A DNA stretch of 64,000 nucleotides. Source: a virus. The notes under the pieces were generated by a model. The model was not told where the DNA came from. It did no database searches and was given only the letters and a program-made list of their open reading frames with translations. The DNA lies in the IMG/VR virus record IMGVR_UViG_3300010151_000009, positions 1 to 64,000 of that record; one strand, written 5' to 3'. Each line of letters opens with the position of its first letter. Positions within the stretch are counted from its first letter, which is position 1. Made by a program: the position numbers and the translations under genes. Below are positions 43,001 through 62,968 of this stretch, in pieces.

Positions 43001-45609
43001 TTATTAACTCCTACACAACAAGAGTCAGCATTGTTTTCATCCCAATATGTATTTCTTCTTTGAGGACTTTGAAATGCAGATACTCCACTATATCCTACAT
43101 TTAAAGCTGTTCCAAAATTAGTAGGAGAAAACGGTAATTGTGAATAAAAAGCTTGCCATCCCGGATCAACACTTCCTTCAAACCATGTATCTTCAAATAT
43201 TCTAAATCCAGGCCCATGCCAAGAACTAAGGTTGGTAGGAAAAGTTAAAAAATCAAAAGGATATAATGCTGAAGCTGTTCCAGGTAGAAAATGACCATCT
43301 TTGACAGGTTTATTACCACTTCTAATTGCAGCAAATCCATGCATAACTAATGCAGAAAGTAACCATCCATTTCCCATTGGATAGAAAAAACAATTATTTG
43401 ATTTCCCAGCTGCATCCCAAGTATTCCAAGCATTTTTATATTTTCTATACATCCCTTGAAATGGTGAATTTGTTGTAAAGTTATTTCTCCATGATGAGAA
43501 ATTCTCATCTGAATTATCTTGATTTTTAGGAGTAAGTACAACTGGAGATGCACCTGGATTATTAGTATTAAGCATAAGAGTATCCCAAGCCGGAGCAGTT
43601 TTAAAAGCAGCCGGTCCTACAAACCAAAAAGCACTAAGAATTGTAAAATACCCAAATGCATTATGGACTGCCGCTGGATCCCACACTCTATGCTCATCCA
43701 TCCAATTAGAAAGCCATACTGAACTCTCAGCTTCATCAAGAAACATAATAGATACTGGATCATTTACTGCACACATAGTAGTCCAATGTGGCATATTTGC
43801 TTCTCCAGCTGGAGTATTATACCAGCCACGAACAGCAACAGGATATGAAGGAAGAAATCCTCCGGGAGGTGTCCAAGTAGCTGAAATCCAAGAATTAATT
43901 TGTTCATAGGGAACAGTTATAGCTGGTATAACATTATTATACTCATCTCTATCTATACTATGAGTTAATCCATGAGTCCAATTACCACCTGGTGCAGGTG
44001 TAGTATCTACCTCTCTAGACATCTTCATGTACCAATTTTCAATATTATTAGCTACGATCCAAGCTGCTATTTTTATTTCATTATATAAATAACTATTAGT
44101 AACATTAGTATTTGCTATTCCTGGTAATCCGCTTTGCCAAATAATGCCGGAAGCACCTGCCGATGGACTAGGATCTTCCATTGGATAATTACCTTGTTCT
44201 AACCATCTTTCTCTATTAGTCATTATATGATATTGTTCACCAGCCCATCCAGCAGCTTGTTCAGCGTCTAACCAAGTTTTAACAGTAGAATATGTTTTTA
44301 TTACTTGAGTTGTTCCCCAAGATGAAGTATCATACCATATATAAATATCATTACTAGGACCTAATTGTCCTCCCCCACAATTAGGGTTTGCCCAAGGAGG
44401 AAATGGAGCACCAAATGGATGGTGTGTTCCAGTCACAGTACAGACACCTCTTGTTATAATTTGTACAGATCCAGATTGATTAACATTTGGTACTTGATAA
44501 AGAGATACTCCATTTGCAGTTATCCAATCATTTACTGAATTACACCACGTCATACCAGGTAAGAATTGCCACCCCTGCCATCCAGCACTATTTAGATTAT
44601 ATTCATAATTTAATAATGCTGTACCATTACCTAAATGTAATATAATTTCTGGCCATCCGTTCGAAGCATTAGGTTCACAAATTTCATCATAAATGATATC
44701 ACATTTACCTGTTTGTGTACACGTATGTTTATACTTATGCTGAACATGCATATGCCATGAAAAGTATCCTTCTCCTACACCATCATTAGCAGGTATCCAA
44801 TTAAATATTCCTAATTCATCTTCTAGAACCCTATTATAATCTAACATAGGAGTACTTCCTGCAATAGTTGGAGGTGGTACAGTACTCCACCACATATTAC
44901 TACCCTGCCCATTTACAACTATAGCTTGAAAAGCCTCATGAGTTCCACCGTTTGCAAAAGGATAACCTTTGATAAAAGTATCTAGGTCATCAGTAGTATT
45001 TGTAGCAATATCAATTAAATTTGTATTTAATGTGCCATTAGGATCCAACATAATATTAAACCATACCATTTTATGTGGTCCTCCATTATCAGCACTATTC
45101 CAAAAATGTCCACTTTCATAAAAAGAAGATGTTCCATTATTATCACAAGTTTCTTGGCCAGCCCATGCAATAGTTTTTGGATTTGCGCTCCATAAAGCTC
45201 CTCCTGCTCCTATTTTAGTGTCCCAACTCTCTAGATCATGATAACATCCCCCAATAACCATTTCAACTGGGTAGACAGCAACATGTCCATTTAAAAGATC
45301 ATCAAACGTTAATTCCATGTGCATGATGAATCCAACATCATCTGTGCAATTCAAGCTTTCCATCTTCATTATATAATAACGCTGGTCAGCTAAATTCTGT
45401 GCGGAATTTTGTCTAATATGAGGGCCGTCAAAAGTTACTACTATTGTTGGTTGACTGGCGGGAGCACTCCATGCAATATTAGCATCTGTAGTAAGTATAG
45501 ACCACGGATCTAATAATGTAGATGTATCATTAGGTTGGGCTATTATAGCATAAGCAGTGTGATGATCTTGCCTCCATGCGTGTATACTAAATTTAAAAAT
45601 ACCATCCAT
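37093..45609 (-). CDS. Giant Cys-rich repeat virion fibre/adhesin (2838 aa)
   Basis: About 20 GC(T/M)DPxAxNYxxxAxxDDGSC-type repeats interspersed with beta-sandwich-like segments; located in the tail module; no signal peptide evident. Confidence 0.75.
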   Translation of the reverse strand: MDGIFKFSIHAWRQDHHTAYAIIAQPNDTSTLLDPWSILTTDANIAWSAPASQPTIVVTFDGPHIRQNSAQNLADQRYYIMKMESLNCTDDVGFIMHMELTFDDLLNGHVAVYPVEMVIGGCYHDLESWDTKIGAGGALWSANPKTIAWAGQETCDNNGTSSFYESGHFWNSADNGGPHKMVWFNIMLDPNGTLNTNLIDIATNTTDDLDTFIKGYPFANGGTHEAFQAIVVNGQGSNMWWSTVPPPTIAGSTPMLDYNRVLEDELGIFNWIPANDGVGEGYFSWHMHVQHKYKHTCTQTGKCDIIYDEICEPNASNGWPEIILHLGNGTALLNYEYNLNSAGWQGWQFLPGMTWCNSVNDWITANGVSLYQVPNVNQSGSVQIITRGVCTVTGTHHPFGAPFPPWANPNCGGGQLGPSNDIYIWYDTSSWGTTQVIKTYSTVKTWLDAEQAAGWAGEQYHIMTNRERWLEQGNYPMEDPSPSAGASGIIWQSGLPGIANTNVTNSYLYNEIKIAAWIVANNIENWYMKMSREVDTTPAPGGNWTHGLTHSIDRDEYNNVIPAITVPYEQINSWISATWTPPGGFLPSYPVAVRGWYNTPAGEANMPHWTTMCAVNDPVSIMFLDEAESSVWLSNWMDEHRVWDPAAVHNAFGYFTILSAFWFVGPAAFKTAPAWDTLMLNTNNPGASPVVLTPKNQDNSDENFSSWRNNFTTNSPFQGMYRKYKNAWNTWDAAGKSNNCFFYPMGNGWLLSALVMHGFAAIRSGNKPVKDGHFLPGTASALYPFDFLTFPTNLSSWHGPGFRIFEDTWFEGSVDPGWQAFYSQLPFSPTNFGTALNVGYSGVSAFQSPQRRNTYWDENNADSCCVGVNNVPGGSGSALLHDAGYGGLDNYGWDLAQQHFDVGVTTTSFVNTITPFLYTLGGSGVCGCADCHCLAISVVDQFGVPVTGYDIHLELNGGGNVLIGTTNALGFVYHTVTTPGPITDALINTCHQLITGAATGAQISNTIGSADWGNCTNSLIEIVLHQSSFNSTIACCTTLGCTDPMMCNYDPMACIDDGSCFMCIPGCMDPAACNTCVGCTTDCNNNLPGSAAYILGGTWGVDTCCLYEGCMDPTAANYSASYNADCLCTLGGPDTSCCIYPCCDPPSITNTFTANASNPCPTDYDFLFTCDLITNGVIATYDIELRFDPGGANTLVAGTSFAGLPITDPISATYSYDCINSIDEFIHGAGNYQVNISLYYGGASGTKCNYSSPITAVVLEVCGCTDPLASNYNAAADCDDGTCTYGTNGCLDVCAGDYSNVWTNNCDGTAAGTTAVGWNSCCHYWHIFQTCNGSNEFFAPVASTIAQTVDDNQDWFDAFETALGASILPGETVMMPYYTNGGGWGTTLTCWEYVGQVCHDTWPVLPNTYNYSMLPLPGPGLPLPNPALVPATVAATHATTNCSVCVATYGCTDVNSTNYNAGATIDDGSCIACLDDGSMPMTYINNMGGFGSLYPGTPATNLLDNCAGFTITNPGYDDGCCIYPTPCAQCTGLTSGTGATNGPCVVDMWVMLTCPTPGPSPITTVVWSLSYEIAPAVFTVINANVQTDSGVNTTYTHSIIEDCNTLLNSGAPYFANGDGTYKWIATVTYADGTVCNHEYTQAITLPVCGCMDPTAGNYNPLATCPCCTLCDGTDDNDCCGCPPGQTEIELVLSDDNLSGMDLAWDTCTITLTGQNTGTVYGPYTWTSNSVAYPTITTFSADIFCAEDDCYLVETCLVVPPDIIGNYLAWSLIDVNTATTIGSGTLGMFATSWQVTVGTPTPACCIYGCMDPLASNYNSAATCHCDDSDPLAALYGPPCVLGQTGPDCCCIPCVYGCTDPLAFNFDPTATCDDGSCCLIDGCPDITTVNANHATLVGACNYDAAACADCDQVMGGASTTCCTYPGCTDPTAINFDASAGCPCNSVNPYNIVNDNDCCLYCTTYGCMDPVATNYDVTADCPCDGTFGAPCVGGQTILTNADGCCCEYCNTGCAVTPGYINYDPTATCDCNGDPLTIPGDATSGPMNLGYDSCCQPCANGCMDWVNYSFPGNYDATATCDCVGNPPGSTAYVFAGTYGDISCCVNCTAGCQDSLNPWYCPTCTCPGPCCPMGCTDTTPGSNPDINGNDSLGNPCIFPCVDGYDVCNFDPAAVCDDLSCSQCTAGCTDPLALNYDPFATGSSVVDCRYCDATTGWIEDYTQIVGAADDLGHIIGPSGPTSSSTQVSTNCGAPADGTLSVVGNAPGMAVTSYYIPFAPITWTIELYATTANGNDWSSGGAILISSQGGLPIPTFTFTGLDWGWYAYKLIPSTGHTEGDQCFESGEQNVLVNVCSNSSSPNYYNSAPCNTVQPAINTNAANPPDWSLHQNCNPCCTTVSGCGCGVTTWTNIAGGCVTNGTIFAGLNCMANGVNPACGGTITWRFENSSGAIIASGVDTVPPNPGSYTATYSAPITGNDTYQFCHDEVWNACANFPQAICAEHCVPIVVSNFTLCDCMDPAATNYNPAATANCDGSTPALIPNTTGVPPCCDYCVYGCMDATAINYDAAATCDCCCIYPGEGCTDPEALNYDSTATIPCPDLDLDLRPDCCEYCPRFDCIPVPATAIDTCAVNPLVLWQDCGAMVTLGLQNAIDFAAYNCWPNAETLCNGIVSLHGIWADLSTYGGLTCDPCNTNWPDECCEDNAISGTSQIKRRIIAISNTCFPGTYITWGDYIVGAITHAYSLSAAKGNALKAKLVKASGTAGYVDDPLNTYGAGLAFCANISPWSGSPDIATIHISDVLDPGNIDSNRMAWVPCCDGPCNCVETLMGYYLNISHCQSDPDSI
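37790..42500 (-). repeat. Protein-level GCxDPxAxNY repeat array
   Basis: Examples: GCTDPMMCNYDPMACIDDGSC, GCTDPLASNYNAAADCDDGTC, GCTDPLAFNFDPTATCDDGSC, GCTDPEALNYDSTATIPC. Confidence 0.9.
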
Positions 45610-51987: not shown

Positions 51988-52058
51988 CAAAATTAGTTAA
52001 TTATAGCGTTTAATTTTTGGTTTTTATTTTTTCTATATGTCTATTATTATATAACACT
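51988..52058 (-). promoter_or_regulatory. Putative late promoter: upstream box AGTGTTATATAATAATA plus Bacteroidota -7 element TAATTTTG
   Basis: TAnnTTTG at 51988-51995 and a 17-bp box at 52042-52058; the same arrangement recurs upstream of the portal gene. Confidence 0.65.
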
Positions 52059-55000
52059 TACCATGCTAATCTTTGCTTGTATCCACCCGTCTTTTGTATT
52101 GATGCAGTTAATACAGCATCTTCCTCAGCAGTATAAGGTTGTAGTCGTCTATTAATATAACGATTAATTTGACTAATATATGCTTCTGGATTTTCATCAT
52201 TACTCAGTTTATCACGCGCATGAAGTGCAAACTCTTTACCAAATAATGACTCTAGTCTTCCCCAGTTAGTACCACTAAGATCTGAAGTCTCTCCAAAATA
52301 ACCTTCACGAAGTAATTCAAGTTGTGCATCAATACTCATTCCCTCATTCTGTCCAAATTTAAATAATTTACCAGAACCTTGGTTATGAGTTAAAATTGTC
52401 ATATTACGTACATCTTGTTCTGTTAATCCTAAACTTGGATTATCTGTAGCATATTTACTAAGCACAGCATATCGACGTGCAAATCTATCTATAGTATAAG
52501 CTAATGATCTCGAATCTTGATCATCTATATTAGCATCATTTAAATTATAATAATCAGCTGTACCTTGTGCAGTTCCATCTAATTTTATTTTTAAAATTCC
52601 TCTGGATACAGCTCCTCGGTCACTCTCTTCACCTATAATATTTCTTAGTATTCTTGATTTTGCTATCTTAGTATCAGTTGGTTTATTTAATCCTAAATGT
52701 GATTCATGCATTGCTGTAGCTAAGACAGCTTCACTTAACCAATTATGATCTATTTCGATTCCTAAATCACTTGTAATTGGAGCAACATTATTTTTTACAA
52801 AATTAATATTATCATTTAAAATTTCTTTTTCCTTATCTGTATAACCTATTAAAATTTTATTATCTACTTTATTGTTTTTATCACCAATTTCTATAGTATC
52901 TACTTTTTCTCTTTTCTCTGCAAGAAACTCAATGTAAGCATCATTATCATGTTGGATTTCTTCTGACTCATATTGATATTTCCATTGAGGTTTATTTGTT
53001 TTTGGAGAGGTTACCCAAGCAATTCCACCCCCAGTAATATCATTATACGCATCTTCATGCACTATTCCTCCCGCTCCTGTAGCATTAATTTGATGACTAA
53101 TATAGGGAACTCCATCTCTAATTTCAGTTACCCATCCTACGTGTGTATTATATGAATCTCCAGTATGTCCATCATAAGCTGCCTCCCATTCTCTTGAATT
53201 GTCATATACAAGGCCAACTACATCTCCAACTTGAAATATTTCTGCTGAAGGTTGATTAGTTTTTCTATGTACTATAGATTTTGTTCTTGCATCATTTGCA
53301 TTTAAAACATTATCAAAATCTGAATGATTATAAATACTAAATTTTTGTACTCCTCCATGATCTATTATATTTTGTTCCATTGTCCAGGCATGTCCACCAA
53401 CTCCCATTCCCCAAGCATCGTATCCTTCTCTTTCATATTCATTATTTACATATTCTGCACACCCATCTTCATAACAGAAACTATCTCTGTTTGCAGGATC
53501 AAAATATAAGGATTGTGTAGTTTGTAATTTATCCATCAATACTTGTTCATAAGCTAATTTTGTCATAGGTCCAAATTTTCCATCTACTCCATCTTTATTT
53601 GGTCCATATGATCCAAGCATGTCCCCTCGACCAGATGCAATAATTTCTCGTTGTATCTCTTCTACATCTTCTTGATTCATCCTAGTGTATTGTCCAAAAT
53701 AAGTTTTAACAACTTCTGCAGCAGATTCTTTGACTTCTTTTTCTGCACGTATCTGATTGTTCTGTTCGATATTCCTATCATAAGACTCGTACATGTCTTT
53801 TACGTTTACATCAGTTAAGTTATGATCATAAACTTCAGGTTCTTTTTCATCTTCCACTACTTCTGGTGCATCTTCAGGTTCCTCAACTGTTACTGTAGGT
53901 ATTATAGGGACTTGGGATTGAATTTGATCAGTTGGTAAAGGTTCTATTTGATATAAATCATTATCATAAAATCCTCCATCTTGTTTTTTAGTAGATTTTC
54001 TATTATTCCATTTCTTCCTTTCTTCATCTTTATATTTTTTAGGTAATTTATCCCAAGAATATTTTACTTTACTCTTATCTTTTAAAGTATAACTAAAAGA
54101 TTTCTTATGATATTTTCCCCAAAATTCAAATATTTGCTCGTCAGTAGGAGGTTTCTTTCCTTTAACTAATTTATCAAAAGCATCTCGTTGTTGTGTACCA
54201 TGATAAATTTTCTCAATTAAAAAGATAGCATCTTGATCTTCTTTATCAAATGTTGAAAAATCTGAAGATGAATTTTGATAATTATCCTTTAATTTATTTA
54301 CAGAACTATGATTTGCTTCTCTAAAATCTATATTACCTTTATTTTCTAAAAACTGTTTAGTAACATTTACTGCAGTATTACCACTTCCGTCTTCAGTATT
54401 CTCAAATTGATATGTTCCTCTACCAGGTCCATCAAATGGAACTCTTTTACCATCTACTGTTTTATAAGACACCTGCTTTTGTTCAGGATTATTATATGAC
54501 TCATGATTACCAATTGCACTCATAACTGTTCTAACGTAATCCATATTTCGCCCTGTCTTAATTAAGTAATTTTTTGTAATTGTATATAAAGATTCGTGTC
54601 CAGCATCGTGAGTTGCTCTAACTTGAGAAATATATTGATCTGTTTGTGAAGTTGCAGGTTTAATCCCATCTATAACTCCTTGTGGAACTTTAGAATCTCT
54701 ACCTCCTCCATTTTGATACTTTCTTAATCCTCCTTTTTTAAAAGTAGTAAATGGATTTTTACCATCATTTGTAAGTTGTCTTATCTCATCTCCACTTAAG
54801 ATTCCTTTAGATTGTCTTATAGGAATATTTTGTTTCCCTACAATTTGAGTTGTTGTACTAATTCCTGGAGGATGTATAGTATTAGTATTTATCACTCCTC
54901 CATGAGGTATCTTATCAAGACTTTTAATATCCGTGCTTGTATTAAATATCCCCATACTAGGATCATTATGTCCATAATTATCTAACCCACTTATTCTGTC

Positions 55001-56281
55001 ATATATCTGATCATTACTAAGTTTTGAAACATCATCCTCAAATATATTTATTTTTGAAGTATATGCACTTCTGTCAGGGGCTCTACCATATCTAGAATGT
55101 GTTTGTCCTGGAAAATCTCCATAATATACAACATCACTGTTACCACGTACACCACTAAAACCCGCTCGATTTCCTACTCCTCCAGTAGGAGTTGTACCCA
55201 TAAACTCAGCTAATTGTTTTGGGTCGCTAGGATCAAATCCATATTTCTCTGCTGCTTTTAGTAATTCCTCATTTCTCATAACGTTACCATTTATATTAAC
55301 AGTACGATATGCATTATTTCTTGAAGAATACTCCTTAAGTAAATCTTCTCTAGTAGTTATTTGTTTATATCCAGCATCACTATTTTTAACTATACCTGGT
55401 TGGTGTAAATCAGATAATTGTTTATTTAATTGTGCTTTTTTTCCTCTATCTAGAACATTATAAACTTTTTTACCAACGTTTTTACCCTGTTTAAGAACAG
55501 CTCCTCCAGCAAATGGTACGGCTATACCTGCCATTGAAAGACTTGCGTCACCATAATTACCTCTGTATGTAGATGCCGCAGCACTTAAAAGATCTCCTAC
55601 TTCTGAAACAATTGGAATACCTGTCATACCTATAGCATCTCCCGCTTTAACAGGATCTGTTAAAAACTCTGTTATATCTTCCTTAGCTTGTATCACATGT
55701 TTTTTTGTTGCCTCTTTATCATCAGCTACTTTTACATTTTTTTCCTCGAAAGTCATTGGAGTCCCATCTTTATTATAGTACTTAGAACCTTGAGTTGTAC
55801 TTACAGTATTAGAAAGAATTCCTTTATTTTTTGCTGTCTTTGTCGTACCAGTCTTTTCTTCTTCTAAGAATTGGTTAATAAACGCATCCTTATCAAATCC
55901 AGCATCTTGATATTTTCTTACACCACCTTTTTGATAGGTACCAGGAGATTCAATAACAGTTCCTTCATCTTCTCCCATAGAAAGATTTTGTATTCCTGGA
56001 GGAACAGATTTATATGATCTAACTAAATTACCTTGATTGTCAACTTTTTTAATGTCTATAGGTTCAGACATTCCTACAGTATTCATAGGACCTGAAACAT
56101 TTGGAAATACCATACTAGATCCAGGAGGCGCTCCTCTTAAACCTTGCTCTTGCTCTGCTTTAGTTCGAGCAACTTTAGCATTTGCAATCTGCTCTTTTTT
56201 AATTAGATCTCCTATAGATCCTTTATAATCATTAGCAAGAGCTGACTTTAATATCTCAAATTGTTTTTCTAATGCATTCAT
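52058..56281 (-). CDS. Multi-domain virion cargo protein: pre-toxin-like plus putative ART-like domain, lysozyme-like, PG-binding, CHAP/NlpC-like and SLT-like domains
   Basis: 1407 aa. Motifs: AIGNHES...GPGRGTYQF; VEEIQ..GVDGKFGPMT; DGCAEYV..GHAW..GDVVGL..THVG; AMHES..SRGILKIK..THNQG. Domains are separated by KxxxGG motifs. Confidence 0.7.
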   Translation of the reverse strand: MNALEKQFEILKSALANDYKGSIGDLIKKEQIANAKVARTKAEQEQGLRGAPPGSSMVFPNVSGPMNTVGMSEPIDIKKVDNQGNLVRSYKSVPPGIQNLSMGEDEGTVIESPGTYQKGGVRKYQDAGFDKDAFINQFLEEEKTGTTKTAKNKGILSNTVSTTQGSKYYNKDGTPMTFEEKNVKVADDKEATKKHVIQAKEDITEFLTDPVKAGDAIGMTGIPIVSEVGDLLSAAASTYRGNYGDASLSMAGIAVPFAGGAVLKQGKNVGKKVYNVLDRGKKAQLNKQLSDLHQPGIVKNSDAGYKQITTREDLLKEYSSRNNAYRTVNINGNVMRNEELLKAAEKYGFDPSDPKQLAEFMGTTPTGGVGNRAGFSGVRGNSDVVYYGDFPGQTHSRYGRAPDRSAYTSKINIFEDDVSKLSNDQIYDRISGLDNYGHNDPSMGIFNTSTDIKSLDKIPHGGVINTNTIHPPGISTTTQIVGKQNIPIRQSKGILSGDEIRQLTNDGKNPFTTFKKGGLRKYQNGGGRDSKVPQGVIDGIKPATSQTDQYISQVRATHDAGHESLYTITKNYLIKTGRNMDYVRTVMSAIGNHESYNNPEQKQVSYKTVDGKRVPFDGPGRGTYQFENTEDGSGNTAVNVTKQFLENKGNIDFREANHSSVNKLKDNYQNSSSDFSTFDKEDQDAIFLIEKIYHGTQQRDAFDKLVKGKKPPTDEQIFEFWGKYHKKSFSYTLKDKSKVKYSWDKLPKKYKDEERKKWNNRKSTKKQDGGFYDNDLYQIEPLPTDQIQSQVPIIPTVTVEEPEDAPEVVEDEKEPEVYDHNLTDVNVKDMYESYDRNIEQNNQIRAEKEVKESAAEVVKTYFGQYTRMNQEDVEEIQREIIASGRGDMLGSYGPNKDGVDGKFGPMTKLAYEQVLMDKLQTTQSLYFDPANRDSFCYEDGCAEYVNNEYEREGYDAWGMGVGGHAWTMEQNIIDHGGVQKFSIYNHSDFDNVLNANDARTKSIVHRKTNQPSAEIFQVGDVVGLVYDNSREWEAAYDGHTGDSYNTHVGWVTEIRDGVPYISHQINATGAGGIVHEDAYNDITGGGIAWVTSPKTNKPQWKYQYESEEIQHDNDAYIEFLAEKREKVDTIEIGDKNNKVDNKILIGYTDKEKEILNDNINFVKNNVAPITSDLGIEIDHNWLSEAVLATAMHESHLGLNKPTDTKIAKSRILRNIIGEESDRGAVSRGILKIKLDGTAQGTADYYNLNDANIDDQDSRSLAYTIDRFARRYAVLSKYATDNPSLGLTEQDVRNMTILTHNQGSGKLFKFGQNEGMSIDAQLELLREGYFGETSDLSGTNWGRLESLFGKEFALHARDKLSNDENPEAYISQINRYINRRLQPYTAEEDAVLTASIQKTGGYKQRLAW

Positions 56282-58590
56282 TTCTTAGTAGTTCCTGAAC
56301 TTGGCTTAGGTTTTGCTTTTGCAATTTTCTCTTTAGACTTAATTTCTTTACCTTTAAGTTTAAGTTCATCCCTTCTAATACTTTCATCTGCTTTATTAGC
56401 TCTTTCTTTTTCATCTGCTTCTTTTACTTTAGTATCAGAATCTTGCAATTTAACTCCTATCTCTTGATCGCCTTGTACAGAATCTAAACTAATTCTAGCA
56501 TTATTGTCATCCGCATGAATCATAGCAACTTTAATTTGAGTTTCTCTATCTTTTTGCTTATTCATGTTATCATTCTCTAGAACATCTTTAGCTTGTTCAA
56601 GTTTTTGTTGCTCAATTTCATTTTTAGATTGTTGTTGTTCTTGTTCTAATTGTTGTAACTGTTTCTCTGCAGCAGCTACTTTTGCTTTAATAGATGAGAA
56701 GTTTTCAGATTCTAACATATGAACTATAGTTGAAGACGGAACTCCATTTTGAATCATTGATTGCGATAATTGTTTTATTAGATCTAACTTTTCTTGCTCT
56801 TTACCAGAATCTTTAACAAAAATACCATAATTTGATTCCATATGAGACATGCTATCAATATCTAGAAATTCTTGAGTTCCATCAGGCATCATAAAAGCAG
56901 CTTTCTTTCCGTCAATCCAAGCTTCTTTAGAATAATCTAACATTGCTTGTAAATCTCTTTGTTCCATTCTATTAAACTTTTTAAATAAATCTTCTGTAAT
57001 ATGGGATGATTGTACAATTGCTTGTTGAGCAACTGCTTTACCTTCATATGGACCTACTGTACCTTGTCTTTGTCTATTAACTCCAGATAATTTTTCCCAT
57101 TCAACCATAATTGACTCTAATAATGCAATATATTGATCAATAGTTTTAATTGACATATCCATTACAGATTGATGTTGAGGATTTAATTGTATTCCTTCTT
57201 TATTATAATCTACCCAAGCTATTCCTGTACCTTCAACATAATACATAAACTTATCCATATCCCATTTTTTAGGGATCATATTAATATCAAATTGAGCGAT
57301 AATGTCTTTACTTCTTGCAATAGCAAGTTCTAATCTATATTTATAGATATTATATGTTAATTGAAATGGGATCCCGAGAGCTACTAAAGAAATATTTTGA
57401 GCGTTTGTATCTGAATAATGTCTTCCATTTATAGGAAGTTTACATGTAGATTCATTATCTAAAGATTCTCTTTGATTAGCTATAGGATTAATATTAATAT
57501 ACATTCGTCCATCAATTCGTGTACCTTCCCAAACTTCATTTACCCACATCCAAGAAATTTTAGCTCCTTGAGCTTTCATTTCTGCAGGCATTCTGAATCC
57601 ATCTTCTACCTCTTGTTCTTCCATAGCTCCAGTCAAAGGATCTAAGTAAGATAAAAACCCTACTCTTTTCCTAGATTTCCAATATACATTTATAACCTCT
57701 AATAATCTATTTCTATAAGCATTAGGATCTTTACCTGATGAACTCGCATACATTAAATAAGAGTCTGCTTCTGAATGAGTAGGATTTTCTAAATTTAAAA
57801 CTTGTTCTTCAGTTAACCATTCATAATATTGATCAACAACTGTAGACGCATGCATGTATTTTCTAATTAATGCCCAATCTCCATCTTCAACAAACTCTAA
57901 ATCTGGGTCTAAATCATAATCTACATCAATTGGATTTAATACGTCTAAGAATGGTTCTCCATTTCTAACTCCTCTATGAGTATAAGTTTCTCCAGCAACT
58001 AAAAAATGAAACCATGCCTGACTAAATTTATCTTCAGCTTCTTGCTGAGCCATAACATATGTTAAAGCATGTTGTCCTTTAATAGCTCTGTTATCTACAT
58101 ACGAATTCTCAAATTGATCTGCTATATGTTGAGGTAACTCTATATCATAATTATCAATGCCTGTATCTACTCCTCGAGCATTCATTTGATTAACAAACAT
58201 TTCTTGCATACCTCTCATAATAGCGTCTTGTTTTGACTCTTCTTTAATTGAGATTGCATCTGCATTTTTAACTACAACGGTGAAATTGAGAGGTCTTTTA
58301 GACTTTTCTCCGAGAAGGAGATCAATTATAGGCTTTATAATAGGATAGTTACGCATTCTAGATGGGAAATTACTTCGACTTTTACCATACGGTTTAAGTA
58401 CGTGCGTATAGTCTCCCTCATCAATTACACCATTATAGTAATCATATAATCTTTTCAGATTATCTTTATTAGTGGCATATCCAGTACCTTGATTTGAGAG
58501 GTCAATATATGCCTCTACACAAGCTTCTCTCCACTGTTTAGTTTTTTTATTGACAGCTAACCTCTGCCGTGGTATTTTATCATAGCCCAT
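56278..58590 (-). CDS. Portal protein
   Basis: 770 aa with NYPIIKPIIDLLLGE, YWKS, WVNEVWEGTRI, CKLPING and SGVNRQRQG plus a C-terminal coiled coil, matching the crAss-like portal pattern. Confidence 0.93.
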   Translation of the reverse strand: MGYDKIPRQRLAVNKKTKQWREACVEAYIDLSNQGTGYATNKDNLKRLYDYYNGVIDEGDYTHVLKPYGKSRSNFPSRMRNYPIIKPIIDLLLGEKSKRPLNFTVVVKNADAISIKEESKQDAIMRGMQEMFVNQMNARGVDTGIDNYDIELPQHIADQFENSYVDNRAIKGQHALTYVMAQQEAEDKFSQAWFHFLVAGETYTHRGVRNGEPFLDVLNPIDVDYDLDPDLEFVEDGDWALIRKYMHASTVVDQYYEWLTEEQVLNLENPTHSEADSYLMYASSSGKDPNAYRNRLLEVINVYWKSRKRVGFLSYLDPLTGAMEEQEVEDGFRMPAEMKAQGAKISWMWVNEVWEGTRIDGRMYININPIANQRESLDNESTCKLPINGRHYSDTNAQNISLVALGIPFQLTYNIYKYRLELAIARSKDIIAQFDINMIPKKWDMDKFMYYVEGTGIAWVDYNKEGIQLNPQHQSVMDMSIKTIDQYIALLESIMVEWEKLSGVNRQRQGTVGPYEGKAVAQQAIVQSSHITEDLFKKFNRMEQRDLQAMLDYSKEAWIDGKKAAFMMPDGTQEFLDIDSMSHMESNYGIFVKDSGKEQEKLDLIKQLSQSMIQNGVPSSTIVHMLESENFSSIKAKVAAAEKQLQQLEQEQQQSKNEIEQQKLEQAKDVLENDNMNKQKDRETQIKVAMIHADDNNARISLDSVQGDQEIGVKLQDSDTKVKEADEKERANKADESIRRDELKLKGKEIKSKEKIAKAKPKPSSGTTKK

Positions 58591-58596
58591 AATCTA

Positions 58597-58668
58597 CAAA
58601 AGTACTTAAATTTTTAGTTATTTTTACTTATTAGTCTTATTTATTATTTTATATTATAATATATCACT
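58597..58668 (-). promoter_or_regulatory. Putative late promoter: upstream box AGTGATATATTATAATA plus Bacteroidota -7 element TACTTTTG
   Basis: TAnnTTTG at 58597-58604 and a 17-bp box at 58652-58668 that is 15/17 identical to the copy at 52042-52058. Confidence 0.65.
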
Positions 58669-58998
58669 TTAAAGATAATCACATATACTATATAAACTAT
58701 ATTGTAAAGTCAATTCTTCTCCTTGTTCTATTTTTCTTAATGTTTTTAATTTTTTGTAATCATCATTTTCATCATCTTCTATAAGTTCACAATTAGGAGT
58801 TTCAGAATGATTAATAAATCCTCCTAATGGCGTACGTATATAATCATGTTGAAAATTTGGATCATATACATGACTTATACCTATAACTACCTCCCCCGGA
58901 ATATCTTCTGTAGCGAGAATCCCAGCTCCATGAATTTGTGACGGACCTATTGCTAAGTACTCCGGTAGAGGGTTATAAGGTAATTTCTTTTTTTTCAT
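58669..58998 (-). CDS. Stand-alone SET-domain lysine methyltransferase
   Basis: 109 aa with the SET signature motifs SQIHGAGILATEDI, GFINHSETPNC and IEQGEELTLQY. Confidence 0.9.
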   Translation of the reverse strand: MKKKKLPYNPLPEYLAIGPSQIHGAGILATEDIPGEVVIGISHVYDPNFQHDYIRTPLGGFINHSETPNCELIEDDENDDYKKLKTLRKIEQGEELTLQYSLYSICDYL

Positions 58999-60962
58999 TA
59001 ATAATAATTTTTATTAAACCATTCATTAGAAGCATTATCTTCTAATATATCTTTAACTTCTGCATTATATAATTCTTTAGTATGATACATACCAATCATA
59101 AATGCCATTACACGGTCAAAATTGCCTTTATGATTGAATTTAATTAATTCTGTTAAAAATGCAGGATCATAAATCTTATGCAAATTTAGTAATTGTTTTC
59201 CATTTTCGTCTGTTCTTCTTACAGTATTTAACCAGTCTCTAATATAAATCTCTCCTTGACGTTTCCTAGGTTCTGTCATGTGCATACCATATTGACGTTT
59301 TACTGTTCTACTTCTAAGTTCTTTTTTATCTAACATCTCAAACTCTTCTTGTAATTTATGTAACTTTCTATGTCTTTTAGCGTATGATATAACCTCCCCA
59401 CGATCATTCTCAAATCCTATTTTACATCCATAATAATCTGCTAATGTAAATAAATTTCTATTATAATCATCTTGCGTATTAGGTCGTCCTACATAAGATG
59501 CTACTATAATATCATCAGGCTGAGATAAATTATTAGGTCTTTTTAATACATATGCAGCGCCTAATGATGTGCTATCTGCAGATTGGTTTTGTCCATACGG
59601 GTCATGACAAATTACATACATATTTAGAGGTACTTGTTGCGCAGAGTTTTTATAAGGAGATTCATATATTACTACAGCTCCTGTAGTATCATCATCTTTC
59701 CTATGAGGAAATTTTAATACTTGTTTTAAATCTCCATCTGGTTTAAATTTAACATCTCCTTTAGAATTATAATATAAACGTCCAACTGTACCTATAGCCT
59801 GTAAATTATTAGCTTTTATATTATTATATTGTTCTTGTAAAGATGCAACATCAAATAAATTAGCAGTTACTTGTAAAGTAGCCTCTTGAGGTGAAAAAGG
59901 GTGCTCCGCTATATATTGGTCTAATGATTTTGCATCAGCTGCACCCTTCTTCTTTTCCCTCATTCCTTTCTCATACTCTATAGCTTGTTCTCTTATTGAA
60001 TTTCCATTCTCGTCTATAAAGCCATCTAGATTTGTTTGTATAGGAATAAAATATCCACATGTACTCCCCATAGCACCTTCATCCCATATATTCTCATAAT
60101 TCATACAATCATATGCTTCTGGATTATAAAAGATTTCTTCCATTGCCTCAAAATCTGCTCCTTCTGTACCACCTGTTCCAAAAGCTACCATTAATCCTAG
60201 TGTTTTAGAACCTTGTCTCATTGTTGGCATTGTTACTTCCCATGCTTTTAATAGTCCTGGGAATGAACCCGCTTCTTCAAAGAATACTAACTCCCCTGCT
60301 TTACCCCTTACTTTATCTGGTGCATCTTTTAATGATACTCCCATTATTTGAGATTTCATCCCCATTTCTATTTCAATTCCATTAACTTTTTTCTTATATC
60401 CAGACATCTTATTCATTTCCCTATCACGTAATCTTGGTTGAGCCCATGCCGTATGATCATCTATAAAAGATAAAAACTCCCAAGCTTTTGAGAGTAATCC
60501 ATCACCAATTAAATATTCTTTTTGGGAGGCAAATACAAAGTTTTTTGAATTCTTTACAAAGAAATAGTTTCTAGCAAGCATGGCTCCAGCTTTATAAGAA
60601 TATCCTTTACGCCTTGCTTTAAGAACAATCATATGTTTATTCTCTGCCCTAGCTTTGTCTATCTCATTAAAATATTCCCAATCTCCATCATAAAATCTAG
60701 GAAATGTACGTTCCCGTTTAGATTGAATTGTACCATCTGGAAGTTCTTCATCTACAGCCCTATCAATAGGACAGTAGTTTAAATAAAAATAATGAAAGCC
60801 TGTAACATGTAATTCATCTACTTTATATCCATACATGCACCGTTCCTTTTCTTCATCCCAATACTCATAATAATCACGAGTTCCAGGAAGAGCATCTGTA
60901 TAACGACCGGTCTCTAAAAATCTGACTGCGGCTGGTCTGAGTCTGTCTGTGTCTCTGAGCAT
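58998..60962 (-). CDS. terL: Terminase large subunit
   Basis: 654 aa. Walker A KARRKGYS, Walker B VFFEEAG, coupling motif GTGG, nuclease motifs CHDPY and NFDRVMA. Confidence 0.96.
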   Translation of the reverse strand: MLRDTDRLRPAAVRFLETGRYTDALPGTRDYYEYWDEEKERCMYGYKVDELHVTGFHYFYLNYCPIDRAVDEELPDGTIQSKRERTFPRFYDGDWEYFNEIDKARAENKHMIVLKARRKGYSYKAGAMLARNYFFVKNSKNFVFASQKEYLIGDGLLSKAWEFLSFIDDHTAWAQPRLRDREMNKMSGYKKKVNGIEIEMGMKSQIMGVSLKDAPDKVRGKAGELVFFEEAGSFPGLLKAWEVTMPTMRQGSKTLGLMVAFGTGGTEGADFEAMEEIFYNPEAYDCMNYENIWDEGAMGSTCGYFIPIQTNLDGFIDENGNSIREQAIEYEKGMREKKKGAADAKSLDQYIAEHPFSPQEATLQVTANLFDVASLQEQYNNIKANNLQAIGTVGRLYYNSKGDVKFKPDGDLKQVLKFPHRKDDDTTGAVVIYESPYKNSAQQVPLNMYVICHDPYGQNQSADSTSLGAAYVLKRPNNLSQPDDIIVASYVGRPNTQDDYNRNLFTLADYYGCKIGFENDRGEVISYAKRHRKLHKLQEEFEMLDKKELRSRTVKRQYGMHMTEPRKRQGEIYIRDWLNTVRRTDENGKQLLNLHKIYDPAFLTELIKFNHKGNFDRVMAFMIGMYHTKELYNAEVKDILEDNASNEWFNKNYY

Positions 60963-61733: not shown

Positions 61734-62282
61734 CTAAGATTCTTTTTTAGTTAATCCTCCAGTATAGATATTTTTTAATCTACTATAGTTTTCTTTAAAT
61801 TCTGTAGTTATTATTTTTGCTTTAATTTTATAAGATGGAGCATATAAATATTTTAAAACTGCTAATCTGTGATTTCCATCTTGACATCTCCAAGGGAATT
61901 CATCTAGTGAAGGCGAGCCTTGAGTTACCTTATGTCTTTTTGCAATAAGAAGACTATTAACAATCCCGTCTGTTTCAATACTTTTTTTCATTTTAGTCCA
62001 ATTATAATTAGTTACTTTACCCCATTGGTTCCAATCTGTATAGTCTACGACATCATCAAAAGTACCTTTAACGTCTCCAATAGTTACATAGATATAAGGT
62101 AATTTAGCATATTCTATTTTCACAAAGATATATAATATAGTCTTTAAAATTCCAGAAGGAATAAAAAATTCATGCCAAAATTTTATATAAGCAAACATTC
62201 CATATCGTACTACATAATTTCGTTGTTCTTTATTATAATGTGTAAAAACAATTCTAAATTTATTTAGGAATTTTCTTATCAT
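61734..62282 (-). CDS. ParB/Srx-like N-terminal-fold protein (paralog 1)
   Basis: KMKKSIETDGIVNSL...QDGNHRLAVL matches the ParB DGxHR motif. Confidence 0.7.
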   Translation of the reverse strand: MIRKFLNKFRIVFTHYNKEQRNYVVRYGMFAYIKFWHEFFIPSGILKTILYIFVKIEYAKLPYIYVTIGDVKGTFDDVVDYTDWNQWGKVTNYNWTKMKKSIETDGIVNSLLIAKRHKVTQGSPSLDEFPWRCQDGNHRLAVLKYLYAPSYKIKAKIITTEFKENYSRLKNIYTGGLTKKES

Positions 62283-62487
62283 TTTTCTTTTTTAAATGTT
62301 TTAATCTACCTGTTTTAACTGAAAACTTACCAAAATATGGAAGTCTAATACCATCAAAATTTCCTTGTTTCATAATATCTGTTATAAATTTAAATTGATA
62401 ATTTACAACCTTAGATACTGTTTGTAAAGGTAAATTATACTTATTAGCTAATTTATATATTATAAATTGCTTATCAATCATCGACAC
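62260..62487 (-). CDS. HU/IHF-like DNA-binding protein
   Basis: 75 aa, basic, with the HU signature IRLPYFGKFSVK. Confidence 0.8.
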   Translation of the reverse strand: MSMIDKQFIIYKLANKYNLPLQTVSKVVNYQFKFITDIMKQGNFDGIRLPYFGKFSVKTGRLKHLKKKNDKKIPK

Positions 62488-62968
62488 AGATACAATCTTT
62501 TCTTACCCACCATTGTGTATCTTTTCCATCCACAGAAGGTTTCAATTCTATCTTTGGAAATACAAAACATAATACTTTATAATCAGAGGGTAAAACTTTT
62601 TTAGCTGCTGCTATTCTATGTAATCCATCTATTATTCTTAATCCATCATCACAATAACCTGTAATTGTATGTTTGATATTAGATGATTTACATAAATGAA
62701 TAGGCATTACTACTCCTTGTTTTTTAATATCTTGTTCTAATTTATCCCAATTATAATTACTATGTCTTCTTGTTACTTTAAATGCACTTAATGGTAATTT
62801 TTTAATCTTCATTGTTTTCCATTTAAGATTAAAATCTAACCATAATATTCTATACCATTTAAACCAAAAGAATCTTTCATCTTGCTCTATATTATAATAA
62901 TTTTGAGCTTTTGTTCTATATGGTTTTCTAAATAGCTCTCTAATTATCCTCAGTATTCGCATCATCAA
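62474..62968 (-). CDS. ParB/Srx-like N-terminal-fold protein (paralog 2)
   Basis: KLEQDIKKQGVVMPI...IIDGLHRIAAA. Confidence 0.72.
   Translation of the reverse strand: MMMRILRIIRELFRKPYRTKAQNYYNIEQDERFFWFKWYRILWLDFNLKWKTMKIKKLPLSAFKVTRRHSNYNWDKLEQDIKKQGVVMPIHLCKSSNIKHTITGYCDDGLRIIDGLHRIAAAKKVLPSDYKVLCFVFPKIELKPSVDGKDTQWWVRKDCICVDD

What the first reader, a model, noticed from the sequence alone, without database searches (positions are those of the whole stretch)
58669..58998. SET-domain lysine methyltransferase wedged between terminase and portal
Seen: a minimal 109-aa SET protein with intact GxG, NHS and ELxxxY motifs and no post-SET Cys cluster, translationally coupled to terL by a TAATG overlap at 58998. 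Known: SET enzymes methylate lysines, mostly on histones, and the chlorovirus vSET is a similarly minimal enzyme. Inference: late co-expression with packaging genes suggests methylation of phage Lys-rich proteins (286-aa basic protein, two HU/IHF-like proteins, K-rich GG tags) or of host nucleoid/defence proteins, i.e. a phage chromatin-like modification system.
Basis: partly seen in the sequence, partly recalled or inferred. Interest (0 to 1): 0.78.

Follow-up and report, generated by a model that had tools for sequence, protein, structure and literature searches.

The report
Accessory mini-SET methyltransferase in marine crAss-like phage
A marine crAss-like phage carries a tiny, well-conserved but dispensable gene for a SET-type methyltransferase slotted in right after its DNA-packaging motor gene; it belongs to a large, unstudied family shared by ocean phages and ocean bacteria, and nothing ties it to a phage "chromatin" system.

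Summary
ORF 58669-58998 (-) encodes a 109-aa SET protein. It passes Pfam SET, models at pLDDT 91, and its best structural match is chlorovirus vSET (Z 11.8). GxG, NHS and ELxxxY are intact, there is no Cys cluster, and its ATG overlaps the terL stop (TAATG).

- The gene is an accessory cassette. Of the 80 closest terL relatives, 48 carry it, 29 lack it cleanly (one is a 100%-complete genome with no SET at all) and 3 cannot be scored.
- At least 8 gains or losses are needed on the TerL tree.
- All marine crAss-like SETs form one clade, yet the gene sits in at least four different genome positions.
- Relatives at 42-48% identity lie in cyanomyoviruses and a pelagiphage, in unrelated contexts.
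- Cellular relatives sit in operons of streamlined marine bacteria: SET-metK-ahcY, an arg operon, and a SAR11 methyl-group cluster.
- The proposed substrates do not co-vary with SET.

Best reading (0.55): an active minimal SAM-dependent lysine methyltransferase, riding on the terL transcript and acting on a broadly conserved target, probably of the host. The substrate is unknown.

The scan's index lists this same stretch once more from an overlapping window (e1-6123494), and no other DNA. I found no paper on phage SET proteins.

The parts
58669..58998 (-). Mini-SET gene, 109 aa: a stand-alone SET domain with G24xG26, N63-H64-S65 and E95LTLQY100.
   Evidence: Purifying selection.
58996..59000 (-). 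TAATG junction: the terL TAA stop shares one base with the SET ATG.
   Evidence: Read. In most relatives the two genes are instead separated by a few bases: TerL ends about 10-17 nt before the first aligned SET codon.
58998..60962 (-). Large terminase subunit (crAss type). The SET gene rides at its 3' end.
   Evidence: phrog_6681, E=3.5e-140. About 40% identity to gut crAss-like TerL proteins.
58591..58668 (-). 78-nt AT-rich leader of the portal gene. SET-less siblings keep an equivalent leader of about 80 nt, so the cassette sits upstream of it.
   Evidence: DNA alignment A2. TerL-portal gaps of 79-86 nt in most SET-less loci. No terminator-like site in 58300-59300.
56278..58590 (-). Portal protein, the downstream neighbour.
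   Evidence: phrog_6547, E=2.7e-122.

Best explanation
The ORF encodes a catalytically competent, minimal SET-fold, SAM-dependent N-methyltransferase, most likely acting on protein lysine. It belongs to a large family of stand-alone SET proteins of roughly 91-146 aa, shared by marine phages and streamlined marine bacteria.

In this crAss-like phage it is an accessory, moron-like cassette. It is inserted exactly at the terL stop codon, has no terminator-like site on either side, and is therefore probably made from the terL (late) message.

It is kept under purifying selection where present. It is nevertheless repeatedly gained or lost and is dispensable for the basic phage cycle.

The same clade works from different genome modules, and relatives occur in unrelated phages and in cells. 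Its target is therefore more likely a broadly conserved component of the infected cell, such as a basic abundant protein, than a lineage-specific virion or 'phage chromatin' protein.

Shown here: gene, fold, motifs, selection, cassette polymorphism, mobility, cellular relatives. Inferred: SAM binding, methyl transfer, timing of expression, a dimeric state by analogy with vSET, and the nature of the target.
For: - SET identity, fold and motifs.
- Family size: 1096 50%-identity clusters at E<=1e-3 and 431 at E<=1e-10. Of the best 150 representatives, 92 are 90-119 aa.
- Conservation: Y8, P10, L11, P12, S20, G24, G26, H43, T56-F61, N63-S65, P68, N69 and Y100 are conserved in at least 90% of 70 diverse members; G40, R55 and E95 are invariant. 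The SAM and catalytic motifs are maintained family-wide.
- Purifying selection: dN/dS 0.08-0.27; median dN 0.10 against 0.083 for TerL and 0.24 for portal.
- Synteny: 70 of 80 viral loci found with the SET protein have terL-SET-portal, 64 of them with both flanks visible.
- Cassette polymorphism: 48 with SET, 29 without and 3 undetermined among the 80 closest terL relatives. Insertion boundaries are clean. At least 8 state changes are needed on a TerL tree of 77 rows, and at least 4 are forced by well-supported branches. A complete sibling has no SET.
- One crAss SET clade (SH-aLRT 99) despite four genomic positions.
- No terminator-like site around the gene.
- Cellular relatives are operonic with metK-ahcY in 15 loci. 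This fits a real SAM-consuming enzyme.
- The protein is acidic (pI 4.8), which fits a basic substrate. This is a weak inference.
- Dimer hint: tandem fusions P0146 and P0147 pair a motif-bearing copy (NYS in place of NHS) with a degenerate copy. vSET is a side-by-side homodimer, from passages of bioRxiv 10.1101/264291.
Against: - No activity, SAM-binding, substrate or expression data exist.
- The stretch between GxG and NHS is a median of 37 residues in the family. vSET has about 15 more residues over the span matched by the profile. The usual peptide-binding SET-I element is therefore much reduced, and peptide binding is not assured.
- Pfam aligns only the C-terminal 41 residues.
- In two crAss-like lineages the gene does lie next to terL, and in P-RSM6 it lies next to baseplate genes. 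A virion-protein target is therefore not excluded.
- Cellular contexts include amino-acid and methyl-amine metabolism, so the substrate may not be a protein.
- The homodimer could not be tested: the complex-prediction job was never accepted, and the tandem-fusion model was too poor to read (pLDDT 56).
Confidence: 0.55

Rival explanations
1. A late-expressed SET methylates the phage's own Lys-rich DNA-associated proteins (HU/IHF-like proteins, the 286-aa basic protein), giving a phage chromatin-like modification system tied to packaging.
For: - The gene is coupled to terL and lies before portal.
- An HU-like gene exists at 62260-62487 (Bac_DNA_binding, E=2.3e-6).
- SET is acidic (pI 4.8), which would suit basic substrates.
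- By recall, archaeal and chlamydial SETs methylate nucleoid proteins. The table of the review PMC3980110, seen as passages, lists only histone targets for the bacterial SETs.
Against: - The 286-aa protein was found in 0 of 5 SET+ siblings and 0 of 5 SET-less ones. Caveat: that search had no positive control other than the window itself.
- The HU-like gene is present in 34 of 34 SET+ and 21 of 21 SET-less loci.
- 29 of 80 close relatives lack SET.
- The gene relocates to replication modules in other crAss-like phages.
- Homologues occur in myoviruses, a pelagiphage and bacteria.
Confidence: 0.1
2. SET methylates a virion or packaging protein (portal, TerL, capsid or ejected cargo proteins) during assembly. 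This might tune DNA contacts, or block lysines from host proteolysis or lysine-directed tagging.
For: - Adjacent to terL in two crAss-like lineages: terL-SET-portal, and SET two small genes upstream of a 748-aa crAss TerL.
- Next to a gp25-like baseplate gene in P-RSM6.
- In Rhodoferax phage P26218, a SET-like C-terminal domain with intact motifs sits in a 291-aa protein that its depositors annotated as tail-fibre-like. The Pfam score there is below the cut-off.
- Crassviruses pack many cargo proteins, from passages of PMC10172136.
Against: - SET-less siblings have TerL at up to 91% identity and portal at up to 75% identity, and need no SET.
- The same SET clade lies about 60 kb from terL in G002 and G005.
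- Structural proteins of crAss-like phages, T4-like phages and siphoviruses are unrelated, while their SETs share 42-48% identity.
Confidence: 0.12
3. The family methylates a free amine (L-lysine, L-ornithine or a polyamine) rather than a protein. The phage copy would then be a metabolic auxiliary gene that makes methylated cations or osmolytes, or draws on the SAM pool.
For: Cellular relatives are embedded in metabolic operons:
- SET-metK-ahcY in 15 loci.
- argG-argC-SET-proC-argD-argF in 3 Flavobacteriaceae or Bacteroidetes loci.
- 18 SAR11 loci between DMGDH-like, class-I methyltransferase, Rieske oxygenase, M24 peptidase and HalD-like genes.
- 9 SAR11 loci between a class-III aminotransferase, an AlaDH/PNT-type dehydrogenase and a DMGDH-like gene.

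By recall, Pfam HalD comes from enzymes that act on free Lys or Orn.

Fusions exist with Amidoligase_2 (P0210) and Cupin_2 (P0274, 14 member sequences).

The SET-I peptide groove is much reduced. In P-SSM7 the gene lies among metabolic genes (nrdAB, talC).
Against: - I know of no SET enzyme with a non-protein substrate (recalled, not searched).
- Other cellular contexts are unrelated to amine metabolism: fabA-fabB-SET in 5 loci, RecO-aaRS-SET in 3, and thioesterase-DUF2490-PHP-SET in 4-5.
- The gene is sparse in cellular groups: 3 of 61 genomes in the order of G018 and 3 of 101 in the family of G020.
- A metK-ahcY neighbourhood fits any SAM-dependent methyltransferase.
Confidence: 0.12
4. A non-catalytic SET-fold protein, acting as a binding module or SAM sponge, or simply a selfish passenger gene with no role in infection.
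For: - It is dispensable in close relatives.
- It is very small, with a reduced substrate-binding region.
- Degenerate SET copies exist in tandem fusions.
Against: - The catalytic and SAM motifs are conserved in at least 90% of 70 diverse members.
- dN/dS is 0.08-0.27.
- Three SET-less siblings carry a different SET gene elsewhere. This suggests the activity itself is what is selected.
Confidence: 0.05

Closest known systems
vSET (A612L) of Paramecium bursaria chlorella virus 1; PDB 1n3j, 3kma
   Same: A viral, stand-alone SET domain with no pre- or post-SET modules. It is the best structural match: Z 11.8, rmsd 2.5 A, 90 residues aligned. The family profile matches it at E=3.1e-9, colinear over almost the whole chain.
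   Different: - vSET is 119 aa against 109 aa here; the 70 aligned family members are 94-113 aa. vSET has about 15 more residues over the matched span.
- Only 19% identity in the structural alignment.
- vSET belongs to a giant virus of a eukaryote and methylates host histone H3K27, from a passage of 10.1101/264291. This phage's presumed host is a bacterium without histones.
- The N-terminal YxPLP and the GISH / IRTPLGG motifs are family-specific.
- vSET is a homodimer. Dimerisation here is untested.
Bacterial and archaeal SET proteins (Chlamydia NUE/cpnSET, Legionella RomA/LegAS4; Methanosarcina Go1-SET by recall)
   Same: Prokaryote-encoded SET methyltransferases. The LegAS4 structure 5czy appears among the profile hits at E=4.8e-7. 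The review PMC3980110 (passages) lists their histone targets.
   Different: Those proteins are larger. Most are secreted effectors aimed at eukaryotic histones. The family here is about 100 aa, occurs in free-living marine bacteria and their phages, and has no known target. The review contains the word 'phage' 0 times.
KMT2/MLL-type SET catalytic core and S. pombe Set7 (5h6z)
   Same: Best sequence-level matches: KMT2D 7.8e-11 with the profile, and S. pombe Set7 2.4e-4 with the single sequence. The FINHSxxPN and GEELTxxY blocks align.
   Different: Those are eukaryotic chromatin enzymes with a SET-I insert, a post-SET region and partner subunits. None of these is present here.
Phage morons and auxiliary genes (accessory cassettes riding on late operons)
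   Same: Presence/absence polymorphism among near-identical neighbours, clean insertion in an intergenic spot, variable location between lineages, and relatives in cellular genomes.
   Different: No promoter or terminator of its own was found. The tree does not identify a cellular donor, because the deep nodes are unresolved.

Membership tests
SET-domain methyltransferase superfamily (Pfam PF00856) | Match to the family model above its curated cut-off | tested here: met
   40.2 bits against a cut-off of 22.4, E=5e-10, residues 60-100 only. The same match was found again in the whole genome.
SET-domain methyltransferase superfamily (Pfam PF00856) | SET beta-fold | tested here: met
   Predicted only. 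AF2 pLDDT 91.3. All 50 best VIA-align rows are SET or PR domains, Z 10.3-11.8. Foldseek gives 207 PDB matches at E<=1e-3.
SET-domain methyltransferase superfamily (Pfam PF00856) | SAM-binding GxG and (F)xNHSxxPN motifs | tested here: met
   G24, G26, F61, N63, H64, S65, P68 and N69 are each conserved in at least 90% of 70 relatives. They align to FINHSCEPN of MLL1. That these motifs bind SAM is recalled.
SET-domain methyltransferase superfamily (Pfam PF00856) | C-terminal ELxF/YxY motif with the catalytic tyrosine | tested here: met
   E95 is invariant and Y100 is conserved in at least 90%. GEELTLQY aligns to GEELTYDY of MLL1. The catalytic role of this Tyr is recalled.
SET-domain methyltransferase superfamily (Pfam PF00856) | SET-I insert forming the peptide-binding groove | tested here: inconclusive
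   GxG-to-NHS spacing is a median of 37 residues. vSET has about 15 more residues over the matched span. I had no model coordinates with which to inspect a groove.
SET-domain methyltransferase superfamily (Pfam PF00856) | SAM-dependent methyl transfer to a lysine epsilon-amine | not testable with these tools
   Needs enzyme assays.
vSET-like minimal viral SET | Stand-alone SET of about 120 aa without pre- or post-SET Cys clusters | tested here: met
   109 aa; Cys only at positions 70 and 106.
vSET-like minimal viral SET | Close sequence kinship with vSET (orthology) | tested here: not met
   19% identity in the structural alignment. vSET is absent from the 84 single-sequence PDB hits at E<=1 of which 60 were shown and appears only with the family profile. 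KMT2 SETs score better than vSET.
vSET-like minimal viral SET | Side-by-side homodimer | not tested
   The complex-prediction job was never accepted. The model of tandem fusion P0147 reached only pLDDT 56. The only hints are the tandem SET fusions.
vSET-like minimal viral SET | Histone H3K27 as substrate | not testable with these tools
   The genome is crAss-like (CrAss_Ring_1 and CrAss_Ring_2, crAss-type TerL and portal). A bacterial host is therefore inferred, and such a host would have no histone H3.
PHROG 28741 (phage protein family, unknown function) | Full-length match to the family profile | tested here: met
   E=3.1e-24; residues 8-107 against profile positions 3-100 of 100.
Accessory (moron / auxiliary) phage gene | Present or absent among close relatives with otherwise identical gene order | tested here: met
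   48 with SET, 29 without, 3 undetermined of 80. Clean boundaries. At least 8 changes on the TerL tree.
Accessory (moron / auxiliary) phage gene | Own promoter and terminator | tested here: not met
   0 terminator-like sites in 58300-59300. Promoter-like sites: 5 found against 6.7 expected. The scan covers sigma-70-type consensus only.
Known anti-phage defence components (PADLOC) | Match to any defence-system model | tested here: not met
   0 families for the window SET, SET-B, three cellular relatives and three fusions.

The most novel reading that the evidence does not exclude
The mini-SET family is not a protein methyltransferase. Instead it is a free-amine (lysine, ornithine or polyamine) N-methyltransferase of streamlined marine bacteria, wired to the SAM cycle and to arginine and methyl-amine metabolism. 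Marine phages would have borrowed it as a metabolic auxiliary gene, for example to make permanently charged methylated amines during DNA packaging or to redirect host methyl flux. It would be the first SET enzyme with a small-molecule substrate.
Probability: 0.1. Interest if true: 0.8.

Novelty: new member of a known kind. Interest (0 to 1): 0.45.

Why it matters
SET enzymes are textbook chromatin writers of eukaryotes. This work shows a very large, uncharacterised family of SET proteins of about 100 aa, among the smallest seen, circulating between abundant ocean phages (crAss-like phages, cyanomyoviruses, pelagiphages) and streamlined ocean bacteria (Marinimicrobia, SAR11, Flavobacteriaceae).

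If the enzymes are active, they would be phage-encoded SET-type lysine methyltransferases, none of which I found described in print. That would be a so-far unexamined kind of post-translational host take-over, or of metabolic rewiring, in the sea.

Cultured systems with homologues exist (pelagiphage Kolga, cyanophages P-SSM7 and P-RSM6), so the question is directly testable.

For this particular locus the lesson is sobering. The position between terminase and portal is an accident of cassette insertion, not evidence of a packaging-linked function.

Tried and rejected
There is no result.
- AlphaFold2 of the tandem-SET fusion P0147 with a 2-row alignment: mean pLDDT 56.2, unreadable.
- Sequencing runs: marine metagenomes hold the stretch, but no RNA holder is listed. 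No reads were laid.
- Gene-content comparison of the window's genome with the complete SET-less sibling G006: 26 and 32 unshared ORFs and a median identity of 56%. This is too divergent to point to a partner gene.
- Co-variation of the 286-aa basic protein and of the HU-like gene with SET: none.
- TAnnTTTG as a promoter-like element before genes of the window: 3 of 36 starts, against 1.2 expected and a maximum of 5 under random placement. Not convincing.
- NCBIfam: no family for the window protein. Two cellular relatives gave only sub-threshold hits to the LegAS4 model.
- PADLOC: nothing.
- Donor of the phage gene: deep nodes of the 95-row tree are unresolved.
- Literature: searches found no paper on SET-domain proteins of bacteriophages.
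  - The single 'SET domain' + 'crAss-like' paper (PMC10172136) refers to C2-set immunoglobulin domains.
  - PMC8195603 mentions SET only for NCOA6 complexes.
  - The library holds open-access papers and preprints only, so subscription-journal work could be missed.
Full report
**1. What is at the coordinates**

The minus strand carries an ATG-initiated ORF at 58669..58998 encoding 109 aa. The preceding ORF, 58998..60962 (-), is a crAss-type large terminase (phrog_6681, E=3.5e-140). The following ORF, 56278..58590 (-), is a crAss-type portal (phrog_6547, E=2.7e-122). The terminase stop and the SET start share one base (TAATG on the minus strand). A 78-nt AT-rich spacer separates SET from portal. 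No terminator-like site lies in 58300-59300, and sigma-70-like sites are no more frequent than in shuffles (5 against 6.7).

The window is bases 1-64000 of an 84,511-bp IMG/VR virus record estimated at 98% complete. Its TerL is about 40% identical to gut crAss-like phages. The window also encodes CrAss_Ring_1 and CrAss_Ring_2 tail proteins. It is therefore a crAss-like phage. The stretch is held by marine metagenome runs, and its closest protein relatives carry Tara labels.

**2. It is a SET domain**

- Pfam SET scores 40.2 bits against a cut-off of 22.4, but aligns only residues 60-100.
- PHROGs places the whole protein in phrog_28741, function unknown (E=3.1e-24).
- A search of 1.84 billion cluster representatives gave 1096 clusters at E<=1e-3 and 431 at E<=1e-10. 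Of the best 150, 92 are 90-119 aa long and the median is 111.
- I aligned the window protein with 69 of those 150, choosing full-length members of 94-113 aa (alignment A1).
- Invariant positions are G40, R55 and E95. Conserved in at least 90% are Y8, P10, L11, P12, S20, G24, G26, H43, T56, P57, L58, G59, G60, F61, N63, H64, S65, P68, N69 and Y100.
It also reveals family-specific blocks: an N-terminal YxPLP, G-I-S-H, and IRTPLGG.
- The A1 profile matches PDB SET domains: KMT2D 7.8e-11, MLL1 1.2e-10, and vSET 3.1e-9 over profile positions 9-95 against chain residues 4-105.
- AlphaFold2 with A1 gives mean pLDDT 91.3 and pTM 0.80.
- Foldseek finds 207 PDB chains at E<=1e-3, led by S. pombe Set7, MLL1, SUV420H1 and vSET.
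- In the VIA-align second look, vSET 3kma_A ranks first (Z 11.8, rmsd 2.5 A, 90 residues). All 50 rows shown are SET or PR domains.
- In the viral structure library the best matches include 'SET domain containing protein' entries of uncultured Caudovirales and a 100-aa Marseillevirus SET.
- The ESM Atlas puts the protein next to clusters auto-named 'SET domain-containing protein' of 107-110 aa that are 93-100% viral.
- The protein has only two cysteines (70, 106) and is acidic, pI 4.8.

The roles I assign to the motifs (SAM binding, catalytic tyrosine) are recalled textbook knowledge, not tested here.

**3. The gene is functional where present**

The SET protein retrieved 232 relatives in IMG/VR, of which the best 80 were kept. 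In 70 of those 80 loci the order is terL-SET-portal. In 64 both flanks are visible; in 6 the contig ends on one side.

Pairwise Nei-Gojobori estimates against the window give SET dN/dS of 0.08-0.27. Median dN is 0.100 for SET, 0.083 for TerL, 0.242 for portal and 0.145 for the upstream 171-aa gene (n = 70, 70, 63, 52; the 70 include three loci with only a distant TerL). SET is thus as constrained as the terminase.

Its synonymous divergence is lower than that of its flanks (median pS 0.43 against 0.54 and 0.59). In a sub-lineage whose TerL is only 75% identical, SET is 82-88% identical. This hints at exchange of the cassette between lineages.

**4. But it is an accessory cassette**

Searching IMG/VR with TerL gave 133 relatives. 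The best 80 are 80-91% identical to the window's TerL.

- 48 have SET between terL and portal.
- 29 have terL followed by portal after only 30-86 nt. The script flagged 28; L229 was labelled 'noroom' although its portal starts 81 nt after terL.
- 3 contigs end too early to tell.
- SET-less loci include TerL at 90-91% identity (L184, L187).

A DNA alignment shows the cassette inserted directly behind the terL stop. SET-less siblings retain a portal leader of about 80 nt.

I built a FastTree of 77 TerL rows: 76 loci plus the window. I left out the three undetermined loci and L187, whose TerL piece is under 500 aa. On this tree SET presence needs at least 8 changes, and at least 4 are forced by well-supported branches.

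G006 is a 100%-complete 84,947-bp sibling with TerL at 83% identity. It has no SET, either with the A1 profile or with Pfam SET.

Three SET-less loci (L226, L229, L234, in records G008 and G009) instead carry a different 117-aa SET. It matches Pfam SET full length (E=4.5e-10) and has GHG, FNHS and ELFINY motifs. It lies next to a GroES-like gene about 2.7 kb upstream of terL. The window's genome has only the one SET.

**5. Position is not conserved beyond this lineage**

The other 10 of the 80 SET-bearing viral loci show three further arrangements.

- L070, L074 and L078: ATPase, exonuclease and phrog_1485 genes, then SET.
- L076 and L077: a protein of about 1300 aa, then SET, with a ribonucleotide reductase on the opposite strand. 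L075 carries the same 619-aa reverse-strand ORF next to SET; I did not annotate it.
- L080 to L083: a GroES-like gene, a minor-coat-like gene, SET, two small ORFs, a 748-aa crAss TerL, then portal.

The records holding L074, L078, L076 and L077 are 100%-complete crAss-like genomes, and each has a phrog_6681 TerL tens of kb away from SET.

In a quick maximum-likelihood tree (95 rows, 137 columns, LG+G4) all 15 crAss-like SETs form one clade (SH-aLRT 99), whatever their position. Deep nodes are unresolved, so no donor can be named.

Among isolated phages, tblastn found 11 records.
- P-SSM7: SET follows nrdA-nrdB and precedes talC.
- P-RSM6: it precedes a gp25-like baseplate gene.
- Pelagiphage Kolga: it follows an AAA protein.
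- Rhodoferax phage P26218: a SET-like C-terminal domain with intact motifs ends a 291-aa protein annotated as tail-fibre-like. Pfam scores it at only 16.2 bits, below the cut-off.

No gut crAss-like phage is among the 11 records.

**6. The family is also cellular**

A scan of one genome per prokaryotic species with the pattern RTPLGGFxNH found 256 relatives. The best 80 were kept. I clustered their neighbours and annotated representatives with Pfam. The recurrent arrangements are:

| Loci | Lineage | Gene order |
|---|---|---|
| 15 | 11 titled Marinimicrobia or Neomarinimicrobiota | SET-metK-ahcY |
| 3 | Flavobacteriaceae or Bacteroidetes | argG-argC-SET-proC-argD-argF |
| 4-5 | Flavobacteriaceae | thioesterase-DUF2490-PHP-SET |
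| 18 | Pelagibacteraceae | SET among DMGDH-like, class-I methyltransferase, Rieske oxygenase, M24 peptidase, HalD-like and 3-hydroxyacyl-CoA dehydrogenase or enoyl-CoA hydratase genes; some also have a homocysteine S-methyltransferase |
| 9 | Pelagibacteraceae | class-III aminotransferase, AlaDH/PNT-type dehydrogenase, SET, DMGDH-like |
| 5 | Porticoccaceae, SAR92 | fabA-fabB-SET |
| 3 | Saccharibacteria | RecO, class-II aaRS, SET |

These cellular clades are each coherent in the tree. The gene is nevertheless sparse. It occurs in 3 of 61 sampled genomes of the order of G018, all about 0.9-1.0 Mb, and in 3 of 101 of the family of G020.

Several 'MAG' loci are evidently phage contigs. L137 is nearly identical to the Kolga SET, and L123 groups with P-SSM7.

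Fused forms are rare. Only 4 were found among longer proteins, plus a few among the representatives:
- Amidoligase_2+SET (P0210);
- Cupin_2+SET (P0274, 14 member sequences);
- unknown N-terminal domains (P0271 to P0273);
- tandem SETs whose second copy has lost GxG, NHS and the tyrosine (P0146, P0147).

**7. How it most likely works**

The conserved SAM and catalytic motifs, the confident SET fold, the selection pattern and the metK-ahcY linkage of cellular relatives all point to an active SAM-dependent methyltransferase. The gene overlaps the terL stop and has no terminator before or after it. It is therefore most simply expressed from the terL message. Timing is inferred, not shown.

By analogy with vSET, a side-by-side homodimer (passages of bioRxiv 10.1101/264291), and with the natural active-plus-degenerate tandem fusions, a dimer is plausible but untested.

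One crAss-wide SET clade functions from late, replication and nucleotide-metabolism modules. Close homologues also serve myoviruses, a siphovirus-type pelagiphage and bacteria of several phyla. The target is therefore more likely something common to these systems, such as a conserved and probably basic cellular protein, than a protein specific to this phage. I put 0.55 on 'active lysine methyltransferase with a broadly conserved, probably host, target'.

Rivals:
- a virion or packaging-protein target (0.12);
- a free-amine substrate (0.12);
- a non-catalytic or purely selfish gene (0.05).

The remainder is left unassigned.

**8.

One HU-like gene is confirmed (62260-62487; Bac_DNA_binding, E=2.3e-6). 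It is present in 34 of 34 SET+ and 21 of 21 SET-less loci that have enough upstream DNA. The SET-less group there includes the few contigs that end before the SET position.

The 286-aa protein (30092-30952) has no Pfam or PHROG family. It was not found in any of 5 SET+ siblings (completeness 95, 97, 100, 79 and 69%) or in any of 5 SET-less ones. That search had no positive control beyond the window itself.

I did not examine the 'K-rich GG tags' or a second HU/IHF-like gene.

None of this excludes HU as a substrate. It does remove any co-variation support.

**9. Comparison with what is known, and novelty**

The closest known protein in architecture and structure is vSET. In sequence, the KMT2-type SET core scores better. 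Membership of the SET superfamily is met on every sequence and fold criterion I could test. Orthology with vSET is not met (19% identity).

Data banks already label such phage proteins 'SET domain-containing'. PHROGs lists the family as of unknown function.

Six literature searches found no study of SET proteins of bacteriophages. The 2014 review of bacterial SET proteins (PMC3980110; abstract and passages seen) does not contain the word 'phage'.

I therefore class the finding as a new member of a known kind: real and conserved, but an accessory gene whose location carries no functional message. The wider family, with its size, minimal length and cellular operons, is the more interesting result and deserves an experiment.

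**10. Earlier notes of this scan**

Its follow-up was withheld, and it did not influence this work.

Noticed in passing
L243:1498-1851 (-) (record G009); also in L226 and L229: Three siblings that lack the terL-portal mini-SET carry a different 117-aa SET gene. It matches Pfam SET full length (E=4.5e-10) and lies directly beside a GroES-like 91-aa gene about 2.7 kb upstream of terL. This may be a functional replacement. In L080-L083 the mini-SET also lies near a GroES-like gene.
   Followed up: partly
L095, L107 and 13 further loci (mostly Marinimicrobia); L090, L092, L116 (Flavobacteriaceae or Bacteroidetes); L128, L163, L151 and other Pelagibacteraceae loci: Cellular mini-SET genes sit in conserved operons. 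These are SET-metK-ahcY; argG-argC-SET-proC-argD-argF; and two SAR11 clusters with DMGDH-like, class-I methyltransferase, Rieske oxygenase, M24 peptidase, HalD-like, aminotransferase and AlaDH-type genes. I found no published function for any of them.
   Followed up: partly
P0146, P0147, P0210, P0274; L254:2422-3297: Rare fusions of the mini-SET: tandem SETs with a degenerate second copy, Amidoligase_2+SET, Cupin_2+SET, and a 291-aa Rhodoferax phage P26218 protein (annotated tail-fibre-like) that ends in a motif-complete SET-like domain.
   Followed up: partly
window 58591-58625 (-); alignment A2 columns 441-470: A conserved AT-rich element of the form AATTT..TA..TTTGT ends about 6-7 nt before the portal ATG in both SET+ and SET-less siblings. 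By recall it resembles the Bacteroidetes -7 promoter box TAnnTTTG. In the window the motif precedes only 3 of 36 gene starts.
   Followed up: partly
window 61734-62282 (-) and 62474-62968 (-): Two small genes upstream of terL each contain a DGxHR motif (read from the translations; no family hit). They are also variable among siblings. The 182-aa gene is present in 9 of 37 SET+ and 4 of 23 SET-less loci. The 164-aa gene is present in 3 of 32 and 2 of 20.
   Followed up: no
L123, L137 (genome contigs): Contigs binned into a 'Methanobacteriota archaeon' MAG and a 'Candidatus Pelagibacter' MAG carry SETs that group tightly with cyanophage P-SSM7 and pelagiphage Kolga. They are probably phage contigs (or a prophage) inside MAG bins.
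   Followed up: no
window 58669-58998 against its flanks; L028-L030, L044, L062-L065: Synonymous divergence of SET is lower than that of terL and portal (median pS 0.43 against 0.54 and 0.59). SET is 82-88% identical where TerL is only about 75% identical. On the TerL tree the window groups with SET-less relatives. This pattern fits cassette exchange by recombination.
   Followed up: partly
window 52058-56281 (-), 37093-45609 (-), 2713-16590 (-): Very large ORFs of 1407, 2838 and 4625 aa in the structural region. The 1407-aa one matched no Pfam or PHROG family, and I did not search the other two. They are presumably crAss-type cargo, virion RNA polymerase or tail proteins.
   Followed up: no
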